This document shows, one piece after another, positions 16,014-53,620 of a DNA stretch of 64,000 nt (its first letter is position 1; each line of letters begins with the position of its first letter). Both the position numbers and the translations under genes were made by a program. The stretch lies in NCBI GenBank assembly GCA_963575745.1, contig CAUYUJ010000148.1, positions 372,001 through 436,000 on the forward strand, given 5' to 3'. This DNA is from Prorocentrum cordatum (Eukaryota). A model generated the notes under the pieces. That model saw only the letters and a program-made list of their open reading frames with translations. It ran no database searches and had not been told where the DNA came from.

Positions 16014-17166
16014 TCATGAATTCCACCCTAACAGCTGGATCGTGCTGATATCTGATTCCAATACCTGTCGACCTCGAGGGAAATACTCGTCCAGTATATC
16101 ACCCGCCTGGTTGACAACAAACGCATCTTCGAACAAACCAGTGGCACGCAGCGTGGACAACATATGTGGTCTCATCACAGACACGTCTATCCATCGTCCA
16201 GAATTGAAGCAAGTACGACAAACAAAATCTGCCCCGAATAAGCCGTGATCGCTGGCTTTGTACATGCATGTGCAATGATGCAGGTCGGTGTTCCCGAAGT
16301 CGTCCACACCTCCCCTGGTGCATCCAGAGCTGTCGCAACAGACGATGGAATCCTGGTCTCCAGTGCGCCAGCACGTACCACAGAAACGGATGCCCCCTAC
16401 GAAATTCAACTCCGTCCTCCCATGCGCATCAACATGCCAAAAGCCTGGGTCAACACAATCGCACTTTGCCAAGACCCGGCGACAACCAAGGCACTTCACG
16501 TCCCAACACTGACACTCCATCTCCTAGCATACCAAGCACTAGTCCACTCCACGAAATTTCGAATGCAACTTCGCCCCAAATGTCTCCAGAACCGATTTGA
16601 AATTAGTCGCGAATCCAGAAGTATAGCGCAACGCAGCCTCGCGCCTGTCAGATAACAGCGCGGATACTGCTCCGACCACGTGCGCATCCTCTCCATCACC
16701 GCAGCTCGTGCAAGTGTCCGTGGCCCTGCCTTCGGCAAAGAAAGTTGCGGCATCTGGATTGAATTCGAACGTAGGTGGGGCCGCATCAGCGATTGGCCAT
16801 GGTATTCCGGGATCAAATCCACAATGGCCGGCAACGTTAAGCCCCAAGGAACCGATGCCGCCGCACCCAGCCTCTAAGTTGCCGAGCCTCGCACGGATGT
16901 CCTCCAACGAGTCCAGCACTCGCTGTTGGAAGCAACAACCTTTGTCAGGAGCTTCTCCATGCAAGCACTCGACCGTGCCCGCCCTGGCTGAGGAAGTTGT
17001 CCTGCTAGCTGCATTCTTCGACGTCTTTTCTGAGGACGGCTCAATTTTGTTGGAGAGTGGGGTTCCGCTGAGACCTTTCACGATCACCAACCGTACACTC
17101 GCGATGCCGCGCAATCGCAGGAGAAGCAATGGCGGCAACATCGGGTGGGACACGTGGTTGGAACAT
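16014..17166 (-). pseudogene. SL-capped retrocopy: coiled coil, PAM2-like motif, Cys-rich repeats and PHD-finger-like domain
   Basis: ORFs 16539-17153 and 16014-16520 share a frame, separated by two TAGs (16539-41, 16524-26); FEFNPDAATF at ~16735-16769; C4HC3-like pattern at 16209-16382; no apparent introns; DinoSL stack immediately upstream. Confidence 0.7.
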
Positions 17167-17178
17167 GGTTTGACCGTT

Positions 17179-17238
17179 CTTGAGCCTTCCGTTCATGAGC
17201 CAGCGGCTTGAGCCAATCTTGAGTCAAAATGGCTACGG
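17179..17238 (-). other. Genomic DinoSL plus up to three relict SL 3' ends
   Basis: Minus strand reads CCGTAGCCATTTTGACTCAAG (20/21 to DinoSL), ATTGGCTCAAG, CCGCTGGCTCATG, AACGGAAGGCTCAAG. Confidence 0.92.
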
Positions 17239-19389: not shown

Positions 19390-19910
19390 GTTCCTCCTCG
19401 TCCCCCTCCTCCTCCTCCTCCTGCTCCTGCTGATCCTCCTCCTCCCACTCCTCCACCTCCTCCTCCTCATCATCCTCCCACTCCTCCCACTCCTCCTCCT
19501 CCTCCTCCTCCTCCTCCTGCTCCTCCTCCTCCTCCTCCTCCTCCTCCTCCTCCTCCTCCTCCTCCTCCTCCTCCTCCTCCTCCTCCTCCTCCTCCCCCCT
19601 CCTCCGCGTCCTCCTCATCTTTCTTATCTCCTCCTCCTCTCCTCCTCCTCCTCTTTCTCCTCCTCCTCCTCCTCCTCCTCCCTCCTCCTCCGTTTCCTCC
19701 TCATCCCCCTCCCCCTCCCCCTCTCCCCCTCCCTCCCCCTCGCCCTCCCCCTCCTCCTTCCACTTCCCCTCCTCCTCCTCCTCCTCCTCCTCTCTCCTCC
19801 TCCTCCTCCTCCTCCTCCTCCTCCTCTTCCTCCTCCTCCTCTCCTCCTCCTCCTCCTCCTCCCCTCCTCCCTCCTCCCTCCTCCTCCTCCACCTCCTCCT
19901 CCTCCTCCCC
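19390..19910 (+). repeat. (CCT)n microsatellite abutting the second SL
   Basis: Directly visible. Confidence 0.95.
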
Positions 19911-19911
19911 A

Positions 19912-19945
19912 GCGTGGCCATTTTAGCTCAAGCTATTGGGCTGAG
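19912..19945 (+). other. Degenerate genomic DinoSL with possible second relic
   Basis: GCGTGGCCATTTTAGCTCAAG (18/21) then CTATTGGGCTGAG; first ATG 33 nt after the SL, at 19966. Confidence 0.8.
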
Positions 19946-19965
19946 CTGGCCGCGGCGGGCCGTCC

Positions 19966-20662
19966 ATGGGCGGTGCGCCTCGCGTGAGGCGAGTGATGGA
20001 GTCGGCGCTGGCGGATGCGCTGGCGGGCTGCCCTGCGGCGGCGGCCGCGTTCGGGACCACGGCGGCGGCGATTGGCATGGGCTTCTCGGGCAAGGGGCTC
20101 GCGACGCTCGTGGCCGCGGCCGTCCGCGGGGCAGCGCAGGCCTCGGCGGCGTTGGCGGCGGCTGAGTGTGTGTGTGTGTGTGTGTGGGTGTGTGGGTGTG
20201 GGTGTGGGTGTGGGTGGGTGTGGGTGTGGGTGTGGGTGTGGGTGTGGGTGTGGGTGTGGGTGTGGGTGTGGGTGTGGGTGTGTGTGTGTGTGTGTGTGTT
20301 TGTGTGTTTGTTTGTTTGTGTTTGTGTTTGTGTTTGTGTTTGTGTTTGTGTTTGTGTTTGTGTGTTGTGTTTGTTTGTGTTTGTGTTTGTGGTTTGTGTT
20401 TGTGTTGTGGTTGTGTTTTTGTGTTGTGTTTGTGTTTGTGTTTGTGTTTGTGTTGTGTTTGTGGTGTGTGTGTGCTTGTGTGTGTGCTTGTGCTTGTGCT
20501 TGTGCTTGTGCTTGTGCTTGTGCTTGTGCTTGTGCTTGTGCTTGTGCTTGTGCTTGTGCTTGTGCTTGTGCTTGTGCTTGTGCTTGTGCTTGTGCTTGTG
20601 CTTGTGCTTGTGCTTGTGCTTGCTTGTGCTTGTGCTTGTGCTTGTGCTTGTGCTTGTGCTTG

Positions 20663-20744
<82 letters not shown>

Positions 20745-21621
20745 TCCAGCGCGCTGGACGAGAACCAGGCGGTGGTCAACATGGTGAGCGACATGACGGG
20801 AGTCGCGCGCACCGTCAAGGATGCCAAGGAGGTGCTGTGCGGATTGGGAGCCCCAGGCCAAGCCGTGGCGGGCAGGCTGGGGCGGGCCTCCAAGCACCGG
20901 AATGCGGCGGCCCACCCGGCGTACGCGGGTCTCGCCGCGGCTGCGGGCCAGGTGCTCGCCGACGCCGACATGCAGGTCGAGAGGAAGGCGGAGCAGGCCA
21001 ACGTGTCGGAGCAGGCCGTGGCGACGACCCCCCAGGCCAGGGAGAAGCAAGCTGCAGCAGGCCGAGCAGATGGCCAGGACGACTGAGGAGATGTTGAAGC
21101 GAGCCGAGGAGGCGATGCAGCAGGCCGAGCGCAAGGTGCAGCTCGCCGAAGAGAAGGCCATGGAGGAGTCGAAGAATAACAACGAGTTGACGAAGCAGGC
21201 CGAGGAGAGGTCGGAGCCAGTGCACTGCCTCGTCAGCTACTGCTCCACAGTGCGCAACACCCTCCTGCAGGCGAAGTTCAAGGACAACTTTGACGACGGC
21301 GACCAGAAGAAGATCGAGAAGGCGATCAATCACACCCGTGACTGGTTGGGGAAAGGCCCAGTCCGAAAGGAAGGTTGCGCTCGAGGCAAGCAGAAGAAGC
21401 TGGAGGGAATCGTCAACCCCCTCTTGATGAAGCTCGCCTGCAACCTGGAACGGGATATTGCGAATATCACTGAGGAGGGCAAGTGGCGCGACGACGGCGA
21501 GGCCCTTCAGACACTCGCGGCTGCGCAGATCGCCCTGAAGAAGCTGGAGGAGGCCATGCAGGCATCAAGCCATGAGCCTCGCCACGCGTGGGCGTGCAGT
21601 TCGGAGTGGAGTGATGGATAA
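19966..21621 (+). pseudogene. SL-capped chimeric retrocopy: HEPN-like RNxxxH region, coiled coil and Hsp70 C-terminal lid fragment
   Basis: Removing the 578-bp microsatellite insert (TGAGT duplicated) and a 4-bp AAGC duplication (21045-21052) restores one ~357-aa frame; 21223-21435 (LVSYCSTVRNTL..KFKDNFDDGDQKKIEKAINHTRDWL..KQKKLEGIVNPLLMKL) resembles the cytosolic Hsp70 lid. Confidence 0.75.
20168..20745 (+). repeat. Compound microsatellite insertion (GT)/(GTGTGG)/(GTTTGT)/(GTGCTT)/(GTGC)
   Basis: Directly visible; TGAGT at 20163-67 and 20741-45. Confidence 0.95.
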
Positions 21622-21842
21622 GGGCCCCATGAGGGTCGGCGGACTGGTGGAGGGCCCCTCGTGGGTCGGTGGATCGTCTCCAGCGGCAGGAGCTCCCAGG
21701 TGGCGTGAGTGGCTTGCGCGCCACCCTGGGAAGCCAAGGGCTGAGGCTTGGACACTTGTCCCTTCTCATAGCAATCCTCCTCCTCCTTCTCCTTCTCCTC
21801 CTCCTCCTCCTCCTCCTCTTCCTCCCCCAAGTTGTCCGGAGC

Positions 21843-29586: not shown

Positions 29587-29678
29587 GAACCACGCGCGCG
29601 CTTCGCGCGCGCTTAGGTTCTGTCGAGTCACAGACCCAGGAATCGTTGTGAGAAGAAATTGGTGACGCGAAGCGTCGT

Positions 29679-31233
29679 GGGGGCGTCCTTGGACGTCTGG
29701 GGTCTCCTGGGGCCTCTTGAGGGGCCTCCTGGGGGCCTCCTGGCGGCCTCTTGGGGCGGAAGGCTCGAGCTTGCGGTTCGTGGTCCCCCTCTGGGCCCCC
29801 TCTTGGGCCCGTCTTGGGGCCCTCTTGGGCCATCTTGGGCGCCTCTTGGGCCGTCTTGGGGCCCTCTTGGGCTGTCCTGGGGCCCTCTTGGAAGCTTCTT
29901 GGGCCGTCTTGGGGCGGTCTTGGGCGCCTCTTGGGCCGTCCTGTAACGTCGGAAAGCCCAAAAGACAACTTTGTTGAACATGTACGTTTTACGAAGGGAA
30001 TGGGCCAACTTTTGCGTCTGGGGGCCCTCTTGGGACGCATGTTGGAAGCTTCTTGGGGCGTCTTGGGGGCGTCCTTGGACGTCTGGGGTCTCCTGGGGCC
30101 TCTTGAGGGGCCTCCTGGGGGCCTCCTGGCGGCCTCTTGGGGCGGAAGGCTCGAGCTTGCGGTTCGTGGTCCCCCTCTGGGCCCCCTCTTGGGCCCGTCT
30201 TGGGGCCCTCTTGGGCCATCTTGGGCGCCTCTTGGGCCGTCTTGGGGCCCTCTTGGGCTGTCCTGGGGCCCTCTTGGAAGCTTCTTGGGCCGTTTTGGGG
30301 CGGTCTTGGGCGCCTCTTGGGCCGTCCTGTAACGTCGGAAAGCCCAAAAGACAACTTTGTTGAAAATGTACGTTTTACGAAGGGAATGGGCCAACTTTTG
30401 CGTCTAGGGGCCCTCTTGGGCCGCATGTTGGAGGCTTCTTGGGGCCTCTTGGGGGCGTCCTTGGACGTCTGGGGTCTCCTGGGGCCTCTTGAGGGGCCTC
30501 CTGGGGGCCTCCTGGCGGCCTCTTGGGGCGGAAGGCTCGAGCTTGCGGTTCGTGGTCCCCCTCTGGGCCCCCTCTTGGGCCCGTCTTGGGGCCCTCTTGG
30601 GCCATCTTGGGCGCCTCTTGGGCCGTCTTGGGGCCCTCTTGGGCTGTCCTGGGGCCCTCTTGGAAGCTTCTTGGGCCGTCTTGGGGCGGTCTTGGGCGCC
30701 TCTTGGGCCGTCCTGTAACGTCGGAAAGCCCAAAAGGCGACTTTGTTGAAAATGTACGTTTTACGAAGGGAATGGGCCAATTTTGCGTCTAGGGGCCCTC
30801 TTGGGACGCATGTTGGAGGCTTCTTGGGGCGTCTTGGGGGCGTCCTTGGACGTCTGGGGTCTCCTGGGGCCTCTTGAGGGGCCTCCTGGGGGCCTCCTGG
30901 CGGCCTCTTGGGGCGGAAGGCTCGAGCTTGCGGTTCGTGGTCACCCTCTGGGCCCCCTCTTGGGCCCGTCTTGGGGCCCTCTTGGGCCATCTTGGGCGCC
31001 TCTTGGGCCGTCTTGGGGCCCTCTTGGGCTGTCCTGGGGGCTTCTTGGGCCGTCTTGGGGCGGTCTTGGGCGCCTCTTGGGCCGTCCTGTAACGTCGGAA
31101 AGCCCAAAAAGCAACTTTGTTGAAAAATGTACGTTTTACGAAGGGAATGGGCCAATTTTTGCGTCTAGGGGCCCTCTTGGGACGCATGTTGGAGGCTTCT
31201 TGGGGCCTCTTGGGGGCGTCCTTGGACGTCTGG
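29679..31233 (+). repeat. Young tandem array, 4 units of 386/386/385/376 bp
   Basis: Anchor GGGGCGTCCTTGGACGTCTGG at ~29679, 30065, 30451, 30836 and 31212; units nearly identical. Confidence 0.95.
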
Positions 31234-39355: not shown

Positions 39356-40014
39356 CCCAACCATCCTGTGGTGTTGGGTTCCCGGTTTGAGGAGACAGCC
39401 CCCCGAAGCCTCCTTCCTCCCGCTGCCCTCCTCGCTCCTCCCGCTACTTGCGTCTTGCCTCCGCATCAGTCTACCAATCCGGTACACCCGCACACGCTTC
39501 GTGGCCCCACATGGAGCGCCACCGACGGCCTCCGTGGCTGCTCTCGCATGCGGTTCCCCCACCCAGTACAGCGATACGTGGCCCCATGGCGAGCTCCACC
39601 GAAGGCCCCACACATGCGGTTCGTATGCGCACCCCCCACCCAGGACAGCGTTCCATGGCAACATAGGGAGCTCCACCGAAGGCCCCAGTGGCGCAGGTCG
39701 CATGCGTCCCCCCCCCATACCCAGTACAGCGCTTCGTGGCCCCAAAGGGAGCTCCACCGAAGGCCTCAGTGGCGCAGTTCGCATGCGTCTCCCCACCCAG
39801 TACAGCGTTTCGTGGCTCCCTGGGGAGCTCCACCGAAGGCCCTAGTGGTTCAAGTCGCACACGTTCTTACCACCCAATACAACGCTTCGTGGCCCAATAG
39901 GGATCTCCTCCGAAGCCCCTCCTGGCGCAATTCGCATGCGTCCCCCCCACCCAGTACAGCGTTTCATGGCCCCGTAGGGGGGCTCCACCGAAGGCCCCGA
40001 TGGCGCACACACAC

Positions 40015-40875: not shown

Positions 40876-43590
40876 AGGGCCTCCCACGAGCCAACGAAAG
40901 TGGCGACGGTTGCGCAGATCGCAAGCCCCCCAGGGGGCGGCGAGGTCCCGAGGTGGTCCGCGTCGCACGTACCTCTGCCGGGCCTCCCAGGAGCCAACGA
41001 AATTGGCGACACTTGCGCAGATCGCAAAACCCCCAGGGGCGGCGAGGCCTCGAGGTGATCCGCGTGGGACACACCTCCGCTGGGACTCCCAGGAGCCCAC
41101 GAAAGTGGCGGCAGTTGCGCAGATCGCAAGCCCCCCAGAGGGCGGCGAGGTCCCGAGGTGATCCGCGTGGGACCCACCTCCGCTGGGCCACCCAGGAGCC
41201 CACGAAAGTGGCGACGGTTGCGCAGATCGCAAGCCCCCCAGGGCACCGCGAGGTCCCGAGGTGATCCACGTGGGACGTACCCCCGCTGGGCCTCCCAGGA
41301 GCCCACGACAGTGGCGACAGTTGCGCAGCTCGCAAGCCCCCAAGGGGGCGGCGAGCTACCGAGGTGATCCGCGTGGGGCCCACCTCCGCTGGGCCTTCCA
41401 GGAGCCCGCGAAAGTGGGGACAGTTGCGCAGATCGCAGCCCCCCAGGGGGCGGCGAGGTCTCGAGGTGATCCGCGTGGGACCCTGGGCCTCCCAGGAGCC
41501 CACGAAAGTGGCGGCAGTTGCGCAGATCGCAAACCCCCCAGGGCACCGCGAGGTCCCGAGGTGATCCGCGTGGGACGTACCTCCGCGAGGCCTCCCAGGG
41601 GCCCACGAAAGTTGCGACAGTTGCGCAGATCGCAGCCCCAAAGGCGCCGCGAGGTCCCGAGTTGATCCGCGTGGGACGTACCTCCGCTGGGCCTCCCAGG
41701 AGCCCGCGAAAGTGGCGACAGTTGCGCAGATCGCAGCCCCCAGGGGGCGGCGAGATCCCGAGGTGACCCGCGTGGGACCCACCTCCGCTGGGCCTCCCAG
41801 GAGCCCACGAAAATGGCGGCAGTTGCGCAAAATTCGTAGCCCCCAGGGCACCGCGAGGTCCCGAGGTGATCAGCGTGGGACGTACCCCCGCTGGGAGTCC
41901 CAGGAACCCACGAAAGTGGAGACACTTGCGCAAAATTCGCAGCCCCCAGGGCACCGCGAGGTTCCGAGGTGATCAGCGTGGGACGTACCCCCGCCGGGCC
42001 TCCCAGGAGCCCACGAAAATGGCGACGGTTGCGCAGATCGCAGCCCCCAGGGGGCGGCGAGCTACCGAAGTGATCCGCGTGGGACGTACCTCCGCTGGGC
42101 CTCCCAGGAGCCAACGAAAGTGGAGACAATTGCGCAAAATTCGCAACCCCCAGGGCACCGCGAGGTTCCGAGGTGATCAGCGTAGGACGTACCCCCGCTT
42201 GGCCTCCCAGGAGCCCACGAAAATGGTGACACTTGCGCAGATCGCAGCCCCAAATGCACACCGCGAGGTCCCGAGGTGATCCGCTTGGGACCCACCTCCG
42301 CTGGGCCTGCCAGGAGCCCACGAAAGTGGCGACGGTTGCGCAGATCGCAAGCCCCCCAGGGGGCGGCGAGCTTCCGAGGTGATCCGCGTGGGACACACCT
42401 CCGCTGGGCCTGCCAGGAGCCCACGAAAGTGGCGACACTTGCGCAGATCGCAAGCCCCCCAGGGGGCGGCGAACTACCGAGGTGATCCGCGTTGGACCCA
42501 CCTCCGCTGGGCCTCCCAAGAACCCGCGAAACGAGGCGGCGGTTGCGCAGATCGCAAACCCCCCAAGGGGCGGCGAGCTACCGAGGTGATCCGCGTGGGA
42601 CCCACCTCCTCTGGGCCTCCCAGGAACCCACGAAAAGAGGCGGCGGTTGCGTAGATCGCAAACCCCCCAGGGGGCGGCGAGGTCCCGAGGTGATCCGCGT
42701 GGGACCCACCTCCGCTGGGCCTCCCAGGAGCCCACGAAAGTGGCGACGGTTGCGCAGATCGCAAGCCTCCCGCGGGACGGCGAGCCACAAAGGTGATCCG
42801 CGTGGGACCCACCTCCGCTGGGCCCCCCAGGAGCCCACGAAAGTGGCGACACTTGCGCAGATCACAAGCCCCCCAGGGGGCGGCGAGGTACTGAGGTGAT
42901 CCGCGTGGGACACACCTCCGCTGGGCCTCCCAAGAACCCGCGAAACGAGGCGGCGGTTGCGCAGATCGCAAACCCCCCAGGGGGCGGCGAGCTACCGAGG
43001 TGATCCGCGTGGGACCCACCTCCGCTGGGCCTCCCAGGAGCCCGCGGAAATGGCGACGGTTGCGCAGATCGCAAGCCCCCCAAGGGGCGGCGAGCTCCGA
43101 GGTGATCCGCGTGGGACCCGCCTCCGCTGGGCCTCCCAGGAGCCCACGAAGGTGGCGACAGTTGCGCAGATCGCAAGTCCCCCTGGTGGCGGCGGGGTAC
43201 CAAGGTGATCCGCGTGGGACCCACCTCCGCTGGGCCTCCCAGGAACCCGCGAAAGTGGCGACAGTTGCGCAGATCGCAAGCCCCCCAAATGGCGGAGAAG
43301 TGCCGAGGTGATCCGCGTGGGACCCACCTCCGCTGGGCCTCCCAAGAACCCGCGAAAGTGGCGACGGTTGCGCAGATCGCAAGCCCCCCAAATGGCGGCG
43401 AGGTGCCGAGGTGATCCGCGTGGGACCCACCTTCGCCGGGCCTCCCATGAGCCCACGAAAGTGGCGATAGTTGCGCAGATCGCAAGCCCCCCAGGGGGCG
43501 GCGAACTACCGAGGTGATCCGCGTGGGATCCACCTCCGCTGGGCCTCCCAGGAGCCCGCGGAAGTGGCGATGGTTGCGCAGATCGCAAGC
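40876..43590 (+). repeat. ~103-bp tandem satellite, about 26 copies
   Basis: Unit GAGCCCACGAAAGTGGCGACGGTTGCGCAGATCGCAAGCCCCCCAGGGGGCGGCGAGGTCCCGAGGTGATCCGCGTGGGACCCACCTCCGCTGGGCCTCCCAG. Confidence 0.97.
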
Positions 43591-43736
43591 CCGACGCCAC
43601 GAGAGAAGAGGAGAGGGGAATAAGGAAACAGGAGAGGAGGAGGGGAGGAGAGGGGAGGAGGACGGGGCAACCGCACTGCTCTATTCAACACGAGTACCCA
43701 ACCATAATTGGGACAACTAATTCTCCTGGCGAAGGA

Positions 43737-45037
43737 CCCAACCATATGAAGTTGTGGGTACCGCAATTGTAAACATTTTCTTCGGTGAAGCTTCCTATGG
43801 GGCCACGAAACCCTGCGCTGGGCGGGGGGGGGACGCATGCGTGCGGTAGCACTGGGGCCGTCGGTGAAGCTCCCTATGAGGCCACGGAGCGCTGCACTGG
43901 GTGCGTGAAAATACCAAATTAAGCGTGTGGGACGCATGCGGGCGGTCCCATTGGGGGCTTCGGAGGAGCTCCTCATGGAGCCGCGAAGCGTTGTAAAGGA
44001 TGGGCGCAAATGCCAAATTGGGTGTGGGGGACGCATGCGGGCGGCCCCGCTGGGGGCTTCGGTGGGGCTCCCTGTGGGGGACGCATGCGGGCGGTCCCAC
44101 TGGAGGCTTCGGAGGGGCTCCCTATGGGGCCACGAAGCGCTGTACTGGGCGGGTGAAAATGTCAAATTGGGCGTGGTGGACGCATGCGGGCGGTCCCACT
44201 GGGGGTTTCGGTGGGGCTCCCTATGGGGCCACGGAGCGCTGTACTGGGTGGGTGACGATGCCAAGTTGGGTGTGGAGGACGCAGGCGGGTGGTCCCACTG
44301 GGCACGAAGCGCTGTACTGGGTGGGAGAAAATGCCAGATTGGGCGTGGGGGGCGCATGCGGGCGGTCCACATGGGGGCTTCGGTGGGGCTCCCTGAAGGG
44401 CCACGAAACGCTATGCTGGGTCGGTGACACTGCCAAGTTGGGTGTGGGGGACGCACGCGGGCGGTCCCACTGGGGGCTTCGGTGGAGCTCCCTATGGGAC
44501 CACGAAACGCTGTGCTGGGTGGGTGACAATGCCAAGTTGGGTGCGGGGGACGCATGCGGGCGGTCCCACTGGGGGCTTCGGTGGGGCTCCCTATTGGGGC
44601 ACGAAAGCCTATACTGGGGGGAGCGAAAATACCAAATTGGATGTGGGGCACGCATGTGGGCGGTACCACTGGGGGCTTCGGTGGAGCTCCCTATGGGGTC
44701 ACGAAGCGCTGTGCTGGGTGGGTGAAGAAGGCCAAATTGGGCGTGGGGGACGCATGCGGGCGGTCCCACTGGGGGCTTCGGTGGGGCTCCCTATGGGGCC
44801 ACGAAACGCTGTACTGGGTGGGTGAAAATGCCAAATTGGGTGTGGGGGGACGCATGCGGGCGGTCCCATTGGGGCCTTCGGTGGAGCTCCCTATGGGGCC
44901 ACGAAAAACGTGAGGGGTGTGCCAAATTGGGTGTGGGGGACGCATGCGGGCGGTGGAGAAGAGGAGGGGGAGGAGAGGGAGAGGAACGCGGGGACCGTCT
45001 CTTCAAAACGATGACCCAACACCACAGGATGGTTGGG
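43737..45037 (-). mobile_element. Hairpin-headed satellite-carrying element, copy 2 (~99-bp units), inverted
   Basis: Same head (45015-45037) and tail (43734-43763) as copy 1, in reverse complement. Confidence 0.7.
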
Positions 45038-52580: not shown

Positions 52581-53620
52581 CCCAACCATCCGGAGGTGTT
52601 GGGTCCGCCTTCTGCAGAGACCACGCCCCGCGGTCCTCCTCTCCTCCTCGTGTCCTCCTCCTCCCCCTCTCATCCGTGCCTCTACCCTCCGCGTGTCTGT
52701 GTTTCGGTACACCCCGCGCACGTGTCGAAACCCCCATAGGAGCTGCGCCGAGAGTCCCAATGGCGCAGCCCGCATGCGTCCCCGCCACCCATTCTGGCAC
52801 ACCCGTCACACGTTTCGCAGCTTCGTAGGCCCATAGAAGCTCCACCGAAGGTCCCAGTGGCGCAGCCCGTCTGCGTCCCAGTCACCCATTTTGATACACC
52901 ATTCATACGCTTCGTGGCCCCATAGGAGCTCAACTGAGGCCCCCGTGGCGCAGCCCGCATGCGTCCCCGCCACCAATGTCGGCACACCGCTCACACTGTG
53001 GCGCGGCCCGCATGCGTCCCCGCCACTAATATCGGCACACCCCTCACACGCATCGTGGGCCTATAGGAGCTACACTGAAGGTCCCAGTGGGGCAGCCCGC
53101 ATGCGTCCCCGCCACCCATTTCGGCACACCCGTCACACCTTTCGTGGCCCCGTAGGAGCCCCACCGAAGGACCCACTTGCGCAACCCACATGCACCCCCG
53201 TCACCCATGATGATACACCGCTCACACGCTTCGTGGTCCCATAAGAGCTCCACCGAAGGTTCCCGTGGCGCAGCCCGCATGCGTCCACGCCGACTATTTC
53301 GGCACACCCCTCACACGTTCCGTGGCCCCAGAGGAGCTCCACCAAGTGTCCCAGCTGCGCAGCCCACATGCGTCCCCGCCACCCATGTTGACACACCCCT
53401 CAGAAGTTCTGTGACCCCCTTCGCCGAAGGTCCCAGTGGCGCAGTCCGCATGCGTCCCCGTCACCCGTTTTGATACACATCTCACACGCTTCGTGGCCCC
53501 GTAAGAGCTCCACCGAAGGTCCCAGTGGCGCAGCCCGCATGCGTCCGCGCGCGCCACCCATGCCAGCACACCTCTTACACGTTTCGTGGCTCCATAGGGA
53601 GTCCCCCCGAAGGTCCCAAT
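52581..53620 (+). mobile_element. Hairpin-headed satellite-carrying element, copy 3 (~90-bp units), tail missing
   Basis: Head CCCAACCATCCGGAGGTGTTGGG at 52581-52603, then CT spacer and GAGCTCCACCGAAGGTCCCAGTGGCGCAGCCCGCATGCGTCC units. Confidence 0.7.

What the first reader, a model, noticed from the sequence alone, without database searches (positions are those of the whole stretch)
19912..21621. SL-capped retrocopy of a HEPN-like / coiled-coil / Hsp70-lid chimera
Seen: an 18/21 DinoSL, an ATG at 19966 and two simple lesions (578-bp microsatellite insert; AAGC tandem duplication at 21045-52). Removing them gives one ~357-aa frame. It contains TVKDAKEVLCGLGAPGQAVAGRLGRASKHRNAAAHP (R-N-x3-H at 20898-20915), a QAE-rich coiled coil, and an isolated Hsp70 lid-like segment (21223-21435) with no ATPase or substrate-binding beta domain. 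Known: Rx4-6H, often RNxxxH after a helix, is the catalytic signature of HEPN RNases; genomic SL marks reintegrated mRNA in dinoflagellates. Inference: a member of a retro-mobile family of HEPN-like proteins that capture fragments of highly expressed mRNAs, possibly a selfish or defensive RNase system spread by SL-mRNA recycling.
Basis: partly seen in the sequence, partly recalled or inferred. Interest (0 to 1): 0.85.

Follow-up and report, generated by a model that had tools for sequence, protein, structure and literature searches.

The report
Broken dinoflagellate retrocopy, Hsp70-lid family gene
This is a spliced-leader-tagged, mRNA-sized copy of a little-known dinoflagellate gene that carries an Hsp70 lid-like domain; the copy is broken by a 4-base duplication and a microsatellite, and its suggested RNase (HEPN) nature could not be shown.

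Summary
These are an 18/21 DinoSL at 19912-19932, an ATG at 19966, a 577-bp GT-rich microsatellite, an AAGC tandem duplication at 21045-21052, RNAAAH at 20898-20915 and an Hsp70 lid-like segment at 21223-21435. Removing the two lesions gives 357 codons.

The locus belongs to a small dinoflagellate family with four database relatives. One is a Prorocentrum cordatum protein, 97%/85% identical on either side of the frameshift, that reads in frame across the duplication site. The window copy is therefore frameshifted.

Two diverged full-length relatives (375 and 447 aa) have the same layout: N-terminal helical domain, coil, Hsp70-lid-like domain, tail. Both begin with translated DinoSL. Their lids cluster with the window's (SH-aLRT 98). 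The "chimera" is thus an old family architecture, not cargo captured by this copy.

The unit is mRNA-sized and sits between TCC arrays, which fits a processed retrocopy, now most likely a pseudogene.

R-N-x-x-A-H is invariant in all four family lineages. No profile, fold or language-model search linked the N-domain to HEPN, and the AlphaFold models are poor there. HEPN identity and any selfish or defensive RNase role remain unsupported. No expression data could be obtained.

The parts
19392..19908 (.). (TCC)n microsatellite abutting the 5' end of the unit
   Evidence: TRF: period 3, 173 copies
19912..19932 (+). relic dinoflagellate spliced leader (18/21; the base at 19911 fits the degenerate first SL position)
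   Evidence: 3 mismatches, 0 matches in 100 shuffles; 15-nt core with 1 mismatch
19933..19965 (+). 5' UTR-like stretch. The true start may be the second ATG at 19996, where Met1 of relative P0004 aligns
   Evidence: tblastn: P0004 residue 1 aligns at 19996. The translated 5' leader of P0028 (PRVPRRRR..AMEAL) aligns to 19978 onward
19966..20166 (+). CDS segment 1: Ala-rich N-terminal helices of the family N-domain
   Evidence: 65% identity to P0004 residues 1-57; GC3 0.88
20166..20742 (.). compound GT-rich microsatellite (GT, GTGGGT, GTTTGT, GTGCTT, GTGC units) that interrupts the frame; either an insertion/expansion or an intron
   Evidence: TRF. Relatives are continuous across this point. 77 frame-restoring GT/GC/GA..AG pairs exist, so a splice reading cannot be judged from sequence alone
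20745..21047 (+). CDS segment 2: core of the N-domain, with the invariant R-N-x-x-A-H at 20898-20915
   Evidence: 97% identity to P0005 residues 1-89; GC3 0.91
21045..21052 (+). AAGC AAGC tandem duplication causing a +1 frameshift
   Evidence: P0005 is in frame here (AREKLQQ); tblastn switches frame between 21047 and 21049
21052..21621 (+). CDS segment 3: Q/A/E-rich helix, Hsp70 SBD-alpha (lid)-like domain (21223-21435), family-specific tail CNLERDIANITEEGKW..., and stop at 21619-21621
   Evidence: GC3 0.82
21622..21774 (+). 3' UTR-like stretch with no poly(A) remnant
   Evidence: read directly
21775..21825 (.). (TCC)n microsatellite abutting the 3' end of the unit, in the same orientation as the 5' array
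   Evidence: TRF: period 3, 17 copies

Best explanation
The stretch 19911-21774 is a processed copy of a mature, SL-trans-spliced mRNA, or a descendant of such a copy. The source gene belongs to a small, uncharacterised dinoflagellate family. The host is Prorocentrum cordatum or a close relative.

The encoded protein has four parts: an Ala-rich helical N-domain with an invariant RLGRxSxxRNxxAH block, a Q/A/E-rich helix, an Hsp70 substrate-binding-domain-alpha (lid)-like domain derived from an alveolate-type cytosolic Hsp70, and a family-specific tail.

The copy appears to have landed in a (TCC)n microsatellite. It has since acquired a 577-bp GT-rich microsatellite inside the N-domain and a 4-base tandem duplication that shifts the frame. 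It is therefore most likely a young pseudogene.

Shown: the SL relic, the two lesions, family membership, the shared architecture and the lid homology. Inferred: retroposition as the origin, insertion into the TCC array and loss of function. The biochemical role of the family is not known. My best guess is a helical adaptor that uses the lid-like domain for chaperone-type protein contacts, not an RNase.
For: SL relic:
- It lies at the exact 5' boundary, with none expected by chance.

Size and flanks:
- The unit is 1864 bp. Removing 577 + 4 bp of lesions leaves about 1283 nt, which is mRNA-sized. The contig of relative P0007 is 1393 nt for a 375-aa ORF.
- TCC arrays in the same orientation abut both ends. 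TCC-type arrays listed, plus the 51-bp one, cover only about 5% of the window.

Relatives also carry the SL:
- P0007 starts LAQAILAQ and P0028 starts PFWLKP. By my own back-translation these are translations of DinoSL.
- The P0007 leader corresponds to two SL copies in tandem, the signature of a re-trans-spliced retrogene.
- PMC12014239 describes truncated and stacked relic SLs as typical (passage seen).
- The leader of P0028 aligns to the window's 5' UTR at a similar distance from the Met.

Family membership:
- P0004 is 62% identical to segment 2 and spans segments 1 and 2 without interruption.
- P0005 is 97%/85% identical and is in frame across the duplication site.
- P0006 and P0007 are 54% and 39% identical over the C-terminal part up to the last residues.
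- P0007 and P0028 share the window's architecture.
- The lids cluster: a starred set of 8 rows holds all 6 family rows, SH-aLRT 98.

Lid homology:
- PDB phmmer E = 4e-6.
- The Foldseek hits of the P0028 model are Hsp70 SBD-alpha chains: TM by target 0.70-0.85 for the isolated lid-domain chains (0.12-0.35 for longer chains), rmsd 1.5-2.0 A over 76-84 columns for those lid chains, prob 1.00.

Coding signal:
- GC3 is 0.82-0.91 in all three segments.

Host:
- The window GC is about 0.6. P. cordatum is reported at 59.7% (PMC10666404, passage seen).
Against: - There is no poly(A) remnant at the 3' end.
- No target-site duplication can be defined inside a microsatellite.
- The parent gene and its intron structure were not available, so absence of parental introns is untested.
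- The SL relic could have been inherited through DNA-level duplication of an older retrogene rather than a fresh insertion here.
- The microsatellite can be removed by several frame-restoring GT/GC/GA..AG pairs, so it could be an intron.
- The 4-base duplication could not be checked against reads. 4 of the 24 listed runs were laid and 0 contigs mapped, so an assembly error is not excluded.
- No transcript evidence exists either way.
Confidence: 0.68

Rival explanations
1. It is a working gene. The GT-rich microsatellite is a spliceosomal intron gained after retroposition, and the 4-base duplication is an assembly error or strain-specific. The locus would then encode the full 357-aa protein.
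For: - Frame-restoring intron candidates bracket the microsatellite tightly: 20166-20749 GT..AG, 20170-20744 GT..AG and 20164-20744 GA..AG.
- P. cordatum uses GT, GC and GA donors, and 83.7% of its genes have introns (PMC10666404 table).
- GC3 is still 0.82-0.91 and there is no in-frame stop in any segment.
- PMC12014239 notes that retrogenes can contain introns (passage).
Against: - 77 frame-restoring pairs exist, so their presence carries no weight.
- The tight candidates lack the AG|G acceptor seen at 79.7% of P. cordatum introns.
- A 4-base tandem duplication is not a typical homopolymer-type assembly error.
- Identity to P0005 drops from 97% before the shift to 85% after it, which may reflect relaxed constraint downstream.
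Confidence: 0.15
2. One reading: a retro-mobile family of HEPN-type RNases that captures fragments of abundant mRNAs (here an Hsp70 3' fragment) and acts as a selfish or defensive system.
For: - R, N, A and H of RNxxAH are 4 of only 12 invariant N-domain columns among the four lineages, and the motif is in all 5 sequences that cover the site.
- The N-domain is predicted all-helical.
- Family transcripts carry SL relics.
- Lid-like segments are scattered through many short, odd proteins. 161 representatives reach E <= 1e-3. Of the 150 listed, only 2 have the ATPase motif DLGGGTFD, and 13 of the 133 proteins with a scored lid hold 2-4 lids.
Against: - None of the 5 N-domain-bearing queries hit any HEPN family in Pfam at E <= 10.
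- No HEPN hit came from PADLOC or NCBIfam, a PDB profile search or two ESM-Atlas queries (best scores 0.78 and 0.84, TM < 0.5).
- The stretch after the His, which in HEPN as I recall it is the long last core helix, is Gly/Pro-rich, unconserved and has pLDDT < 50 in P0028.
- The same lid and tail occur in diverged members and form one clade, so the lid is ancestral rather than variable cargo.
- By my rough residue-frequency estimate, RNxxxH alone is expected in 1-2% of proteins of this size.
Confidence: 0.07
3. The SL relic is inherited. This locus arose by DNA-level (segmental or tandem) duplication of an older retrogene, not by a retroposition event at this site.
For: - The SL has already diverged at 3 of 21 positions, against 1 of 21 for the neighbouring relic at 17218-17238.
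- There is no poly(A) tail.
- Dinoflagellate genomes duplicate genes heavily (PMC10666404 discussion passage).
Against: - The homologous sequence starts exactly at the SL and ends about 150 nt after the stop.
- Both ends abut the same TCC repeat.
- No second copy lies in the 64-kb window.
Confidence: 0.2

Closest known systems
DinoSL-tagged retrogenes / processed pseudogenes of dinoflagellates (PMC5585692 and PMC6050394, search listing and start of abstract only; PMC12014239, passages; Slamovits & Keeling 2008, recalled)
   Same: There is a genomic relic of the 22-nt spliced leader directly upstream of an mRNA-sized gene copy. Relatives' transcripts carry stacked SL relics. A second retro-tagged unit lies 2.7 kb away on the other strand.
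   Different: There is no poly(A) remnant. The copy is interrupted by a 577-bp microsatellite and is frameshifted, so it is a dead or dying copy rather than a functional retrogene.
Hsp70 substrate-binding domain alpha ('lid'), e.g. PDB 2p32, 3lof, 5z8q, 6zhi
   Same: Sequence homology is significant (E 4e-6 to 1e-5). It includes the Hsp70-like LEGIVNP(L/I)xxKL and (E/S)YC..(V/M)RNTL stretches, and covers Hsp70 positions about 523-616. The relative's model superposes on solved lids at 1.5-2.0 A.
   Different: There is no nucleotide-binding domain, no beta-sandwich and no GGMP/EEVD tail. Instead the lid is preceded by a long Q/A/E-rich helix and an unrelated N-domain, and followed by a family-specific tail.
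HEPN superfamily (Rx4-6H RNases; description recalled from Anantharaman et al. 2013, not read here)
   Same: It has an invariant R-N-x-x-A-H block in an all-helical domain, resembling the RNxxAH form that I recall for several HEPN families.
   Different: No profile or fold match was found. The segment after the His is not a conserved helix. No activity data exist.
Sacsin (DnaJ + HEPN in one protein; recalled; PMC8626496 seen in a listing only)
   Same: It would be the nearest precedent for a chaperone-system module and a HEPN domain in one polypeptide, if the N-domain were HEPN.
   Different: The modules (J domain versus lid), their order and the protein size differ. No homology was shown.

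Membership tests
DinoSL-tagged processed retrocopy | Relic spliced leader at the 5' end of the copy | tested here: met
   18/21 match at 19912-19932, 0 expected; the 15-nt core has 1 mismatch
DinoSL-tagged processed retrocopy | Copy is colinear with the mature mRNA (no parental introns) | tested here: inconclusive
   The copy is colinear with relatives' proteins except for the microsatellite at 20166-20742. No parental gene structure was obtainable
DinoSL-tagged processed retrocopy | Poly(A) remnant at the 3' end | tested here: not met
   There is no A-run between the stop (21621) and the TCC array (21775)
DinoSL-tagged processed retrocopy | Target-site duplication or a recognisable insertion site | tested here: inconclusive
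   TCC arrays abut both ends. Exact duplications cannot be defined within a microsatellite
Pseudogene | Frame disruption relative to an intact relative | tested here: met
   The 4-base duplication forces a +3 to +1 frame switch against P0005, which is in frame. It was not verified against reads
Hsp70 (PF00012) | Nucleotide-binding (ATPase) domain and beta-sandwich substrate-binding domain | tested here: not met
   No PF00012 hit for the window segments. The alignments cover only Hsp70 positions about 523-616. The relative P0006 hits only profile positions 483-597 of 599 at E 0.13
Hsp70 (PF00012) | Alpha-helical lid (SBD-alpha) | tested here: met
   E 4.3e-6 to 2p32_A. Foldseek on the P0028 model: TM by target 0.70-0.85 to the isolated lid-domain chains
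HEPN | Conserved Rx4-6H motif, often with a polar residue after R | tested here: met
   RNxxAH is present in 5 of 5 sequences covering the site and invariant in the four lineages
HEPN | Significant match to a HEPN sequence profile | tested here: not met
   0 of 5 N-domain-bearing queries in Pfam at E <= 10. None in PADLOC or NCBIfam or in the PDB profile search. HEPN families are very divergent, so this weakens the claim but does not exclude it
HEPN | Four-helix up-down bundle with the motif at the start of the last core helix (as recalled) | tested here: inconclusive
   AF2 N-domain pLDDT is 30-81 (P0028) and 33-66 (P0004). The VIA search was filled by the C-terminal helix. The stretch after the motif is unconserved and non-helical in the P0028 model
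HEPN | Metal-independent RNase activity dependent on R and H | not testable with these tools
   Needs biochemistry on an intact paralogue

The most novel reading that the evidence does not exclude
The conserved N-domain with its invariant RLGRxSxxRNxxAH block is a very divergent HEPN-type RNase domain, fused in dinoflagellates to an Hsp70 lid-like module. The family multiplies through SL-mRNA retroposition. This would be an RNA-cleaving protein coupled to a chaperone-derived binding domain, with no described counterpart.
Probability: 0.1. Interest if true: 0.7.

Novelty: new member of a known kind. Interest (0 to 1): 0.3.

Why it matters
As a locus it is ordinary. SL-tagged retrocopies, many of them decaying, are a known and abundant feature of dinoflagellate genomes. 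What is worth keeping is the family behind it, which is dinoflagellate-specific, uncharacterised and has no Pfam match. It combines a conserved helical N-domain with an Hsp70 lid-like domain lacking the rest of Hsp70. Lid-like segments also occur alone or in 2-4 tandem copies in many other short proteins. That suggests the Hsp70 lid has been reused as a free-standing module in this lineage, which may deserve a dedicated survey. In the 10 listed papers of each of two literature searches I saw no title or abstract start describing such a family. These searches were shallow, so this is no proof of absence.

Tried and rejected
- Whole-genome search: no genome is held for this window.
- Cluster and source look-up for the relatives: the service was switched off. 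The organisms of P0006, P0007 and P0028 are therefore unknown. The source label of P0004, which names a green alga, could not be checked.
- DNA of relatives: the first try failed because the alignment was too diverse. A closer alignment matched 600 pattern stretches with none confirmed. P0007 alone matched 97 stretches with none confirmed.
- Expression and read support: 24 runs shared only 0.12-0.19 of the sampled words. 4 of them were laid on 20745-21775 at 85% likeness, with 0 contigs on the stretch. The shared words probably came from the microsatellite.
- Paralogues in the window: none.
- HEPN tests without result: Pfam, PADLOC, NCBIfam, a PDB profile and the ESM Atlas twice. In PADLOC, P0002 gave one weak non-HEPN hit (E1-E2, E 0.0044, 13.9 bits).
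- Structure: the AF2 model of P0004 has mean pLDDT 52. Its VIA-wide search returned only coiled-coil matches to residues 173-241 and says nothing about the N-domain.
- Profile-profile comparison with a true HEPN alignment: attempted through an E. coli locus handle. The tool returns no sequences from the control genomes, so I dropped this.
- Intron reading of the microsatellite: enumeration gave 77 frame-restoring donor/acceptor pairs, too many to count as evidence.
- Bacterial promoter/terminator scan: irrelevant for a eukaryote.
- Pfam on 9 neighbouring ORFs: 0 of 9 with a family at E <= 0.01.
- Earlier findings of this scan: none for this genome.
Full report
**What is in the sequence**

The window is about 60% G+C and rich in microsatellites and satellites.

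- At 19912-19932(+), the 21-nt dinoflagellate spliced-leader consensus matches with 3 mismatches. Only one other match at 3 mismatches or fewer exists in the window (17218-17238, minus strand, 1 mismatch). None occurred in any of 100 shuffles.
- The SL-like sequence starts right after a 517-bp (TCC)n array at 19392-19908.
- An ATG at 19966 opens a frame that runs to 20166.
- A compound GT-rich microsatellite follows at 20166-20742.
- The protein-like frame resumes at 20745 and runs to 21047.
- At AAGCAAGC (21045-21052) the frame shifts by +1 and continues to a TAA at 21619-21621.
- The three segments add up to 358 codons with the stop.
- All three show strong third-position G+C (0.88, 0.91, 0.82), against 0.59-0.61 in the long flanks. 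They are, or recently were, coding.
- After about 150 nt of 3' sequence without any A-run, a second (TCC)n array begins at 21775.

**Relatives, and what they say about the two lesions**

*P0004.* A word-indexed search with segment 2 found P0004 (241 aa, 62% identical). It runs without interruption from the equivalent of segment 1 into segment 2. Its Met1 aligns to the window's second ATG at 19996.

*P0005.* A second search found P0005, labelled by NCBI as an unnamed protein of Prorocentrum cordatum.
- It is 86/89 identical to the window up to ...AREK.
- It continues in the same frame with LQQAEQ... In the window this continuation lies in the +1 frame, where it is 55/65 identical.
- The AAGC duplication is therefore a frameshift relative to a close paralogue or allele, and the microsatellite lies at a point where relatives are continuous.

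*Host.* The label and the G+C content (59.7% reported for P. cordatum, PMC10666404, passage seen) point to P. cordatum or a close relative.

*Reads.* I could not verify the duplication against reads. The 24 runs offered shared only 12-19% of the sampled words. The 4 that I laid placed no contig on the repeat-free part of the locus.

**The family and its architecture**

A full HMMER scan of 1.84 billion representatives with segment 3 gave 161 proteins at E <= 1e-3. Nearly all match only residues about 52-128, the lid-like part.

Two hits are full-length relatives.
- P0007 (375 aa) matches the window to the very last residues (...CNLERKIATITEEGEW...SHEP...NDG).
- P0028 (447 aa) is the other.
- Both also carry the N-domain with RVRNRAAH or KIRNSSAH.

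P0006, P0013, P0014, P0042 and P0045 are shorter sequences with the same lid and/or tail.

A further profile search for the N-domain returned only P0004, P0005 and P0007. P0028 is longer than that search's length range.

The layout of N-domain, Q/A/E-rich helix, lid and tail is thus shared by three lineages that are only 25-50% identical. The lid tree supports this.
- It used 149 lid segments from 133 proteins and kept 70 columns, with the quick IQ-TREE method.
- The six family lids fall in one set of 8 rows with SH-aLRT 98. The other two rows are on long branches.
- The tree has few columns and many unresolved forks, so this is supporting evidence, not proof.

P0004 and P0005 both end exactly where the lid begins in the alignment. 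They look like truncated models, possibly at an intron or a stop, rather than carriers of different cargo. The chimera is therefore an old, inherited architecture, not something assembled by this copy.

**The lid**

- Segment 3 residues 60-128 align to solved Hsp70 C-terminal subdomains at E = 4.3e-6 (C. elegans, 2p32) and 5.2e-6 (P. falciparum Hsp70-x, 6zhi).
- It also aligns to Chlamydomonas HSP70A positions 523-616 at E = 1.8e-5.
- In the AlphaFold model of P0028 (8-row alignment, mean pLDDT 63.7), the lid region has pLDDT mostly 74-89, with one block at 66.
- Foldseek returns Hsp70 SBD-alpha chains as its best matches. TM by target is 0.70-0.85 for the isolated lid-domain chains. For those chains, rmsd is 1.5-2.0 A over 76-84 columns, probability is 1.00, and E-values are only 0.07-0.5 because the query is the whole protein.
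- No ATPase or beta-sandwich part is present.

Among the 150 listed hits:
- only 2 carry the ATPase motif DLGGGTFD;
- 19 end in EEVD or EEID and are probably fragments of ordinary Hsp70;
- the median length is 165 aa;
- 13 of the 133 proteins with a scored lid carry 2-4 lids.

The library has no taxon labels, so I cannot say how many of these are dinoflagellate.

**Retrocopy or not**

For:
- The SL relic sits at the exact 5' boundary.
- The unit is mRNA-sized: 1864 bp, or about 1283 nt without the lesions. P0007's contig is 1393 nt.
- TCC arrays abut both ends.
- P0007 and P0028 start with peptides that are, by my own back-translation, translated DinoSL. In P0007 this corresponds to two copies in tandem.
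- The pattern of stacked, truncated relic SLs is described for dinoflagellate retrogenes in PMC12014239 (passage seen).
- P0028's translated leader aligns to the window's 5' UTR. The SL therefore sits where the mature mRNA of this family begins.

Against:
- There is no poly(A) remnant and no definable target-site duplication.
- No parent gene is in hand.
- Inheritance of the SL through DNA-level duplication of an older retrogene is possible.

I put about 0.68 on the statement "processed copy, or its descendant, now a pseudogene". I put about 0.15 on [quoted passage not shown]. The intron idea cannot be judged from sequence, for two reasons.
- With the loose GT/GC/GA donors of this genome, 77 frame-restoring pairs exist.
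- The tight ones lack the common AG|G acceptor.

**The HEPN idea**

The motif is real and conserved.
- RNxxAH is present in all 5 sequences that cover the site.
- R, N, A and H are 4 of the 12 invariant N-domain columns among the four lineages.

Beyond that, nothing connects the domain to HEPN.
- No Pfam family hit for any of the 5 N-domain-bearing queries at E <= 10.
- Nothing in PADLOC or NCBIfam.
- Nothing in a PDB profile search.
- Two ESM-Atlas queries gave best scores of 0.78 and 0.84, with structural TM below 0.5.

AlphaFold with only 6-8 sequences gives helices but low confidence in the N-domain, and the one structural search on it was uninformative.

The stretch after the His would, as I recall the HEPN fold, have to be the long last core helix. 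In P0007 and P0028 it is Gly/Pro-rich and unconserved, and in the P0028 model it is below pLDDT 50.

I rate HEPN identity at roughly 0.1. The "selfish or defensive RNase system" has no evidence at all.

**Verdict**

This is a well-observed but ordinary locus. It is an SL-tagged, mRNA-sized, frameshifted copy of a member of an uncharacterised dinoflagellate gene family. The family itself has a conserved N-domain with an RNxxAH block plus a free-standing Hsp70 lid-like domain. That is the part worth a follow-up.

Noticed in passing
window 17207-17238 (minus strand): A second, better preserved relic DinoSL (1 mismatch of 21) is followed directly by a truncated second copy (ATTGGCTCAAG). This is the stacked-SL signature of repeated retroposition. 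The downstream minus-strand ORFs (16542-17192, 16017-16523) have no Pfam family.
   Followed up: partly
window 19933-19950: Right after the SL relic comes CTATTGGGCTGAG, which by eye looks like a further, degenerate truncated SL copy. It was not tested statistically.
   Followed up: no
P0007 and P0028 (database relatives): Both predicted proteins begin with translated spliced leader (LAQAILAQ..., PFWLKP...). They therefore come from SL-bearing transcripts or SL-relic loci, and their annotated N-termini are not real protein sequence.
   Followed up: partly
P0004 and P0005 (database relatives): Both end within a few residues of the start of the lid (…TEYELCL, …RCLVS), where the window reads on (CLVSYCSTV). 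This may mark an intron position or a shared truncation in genomic gene models.
   Followed up: no
P0004 source label: The EukProt-derived name of P0004 mentions a green alga (Pyramimonas sp.), although the protein is 62% identical to a Prorocentrum-like sequence. It may be a contaminant or a label artefact.
   Followed up: no
window 39495-40007, 43828-44954, 52732-53618: Arrays of roughly 77-100-bp satellite units share a GCATGCG-containing core (…GGCGCAG…CGCATGCG…CCCC…) in both orientations. They look like one satellite family spread over the window.
   Followed up: no
window 40877-43592 and 29672-31233: There are two large tandem arrays. One is a 103-bp unit x 26.5 copies at 86% match. The other is a 386-bp unit x 4.1 copies at 97% match, with internal 21/32-bp subrepeats.
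   Followed up: no
lid-like hits P0008-P0012, P0010: Proteins with 2-4 tandem Hsp70 lid-like domains and no ATPase domain. P0010 (1128 aa) has four near-identical lids at its C-terminus after a multi-pass hydrophobic region.
   Followed up: partly
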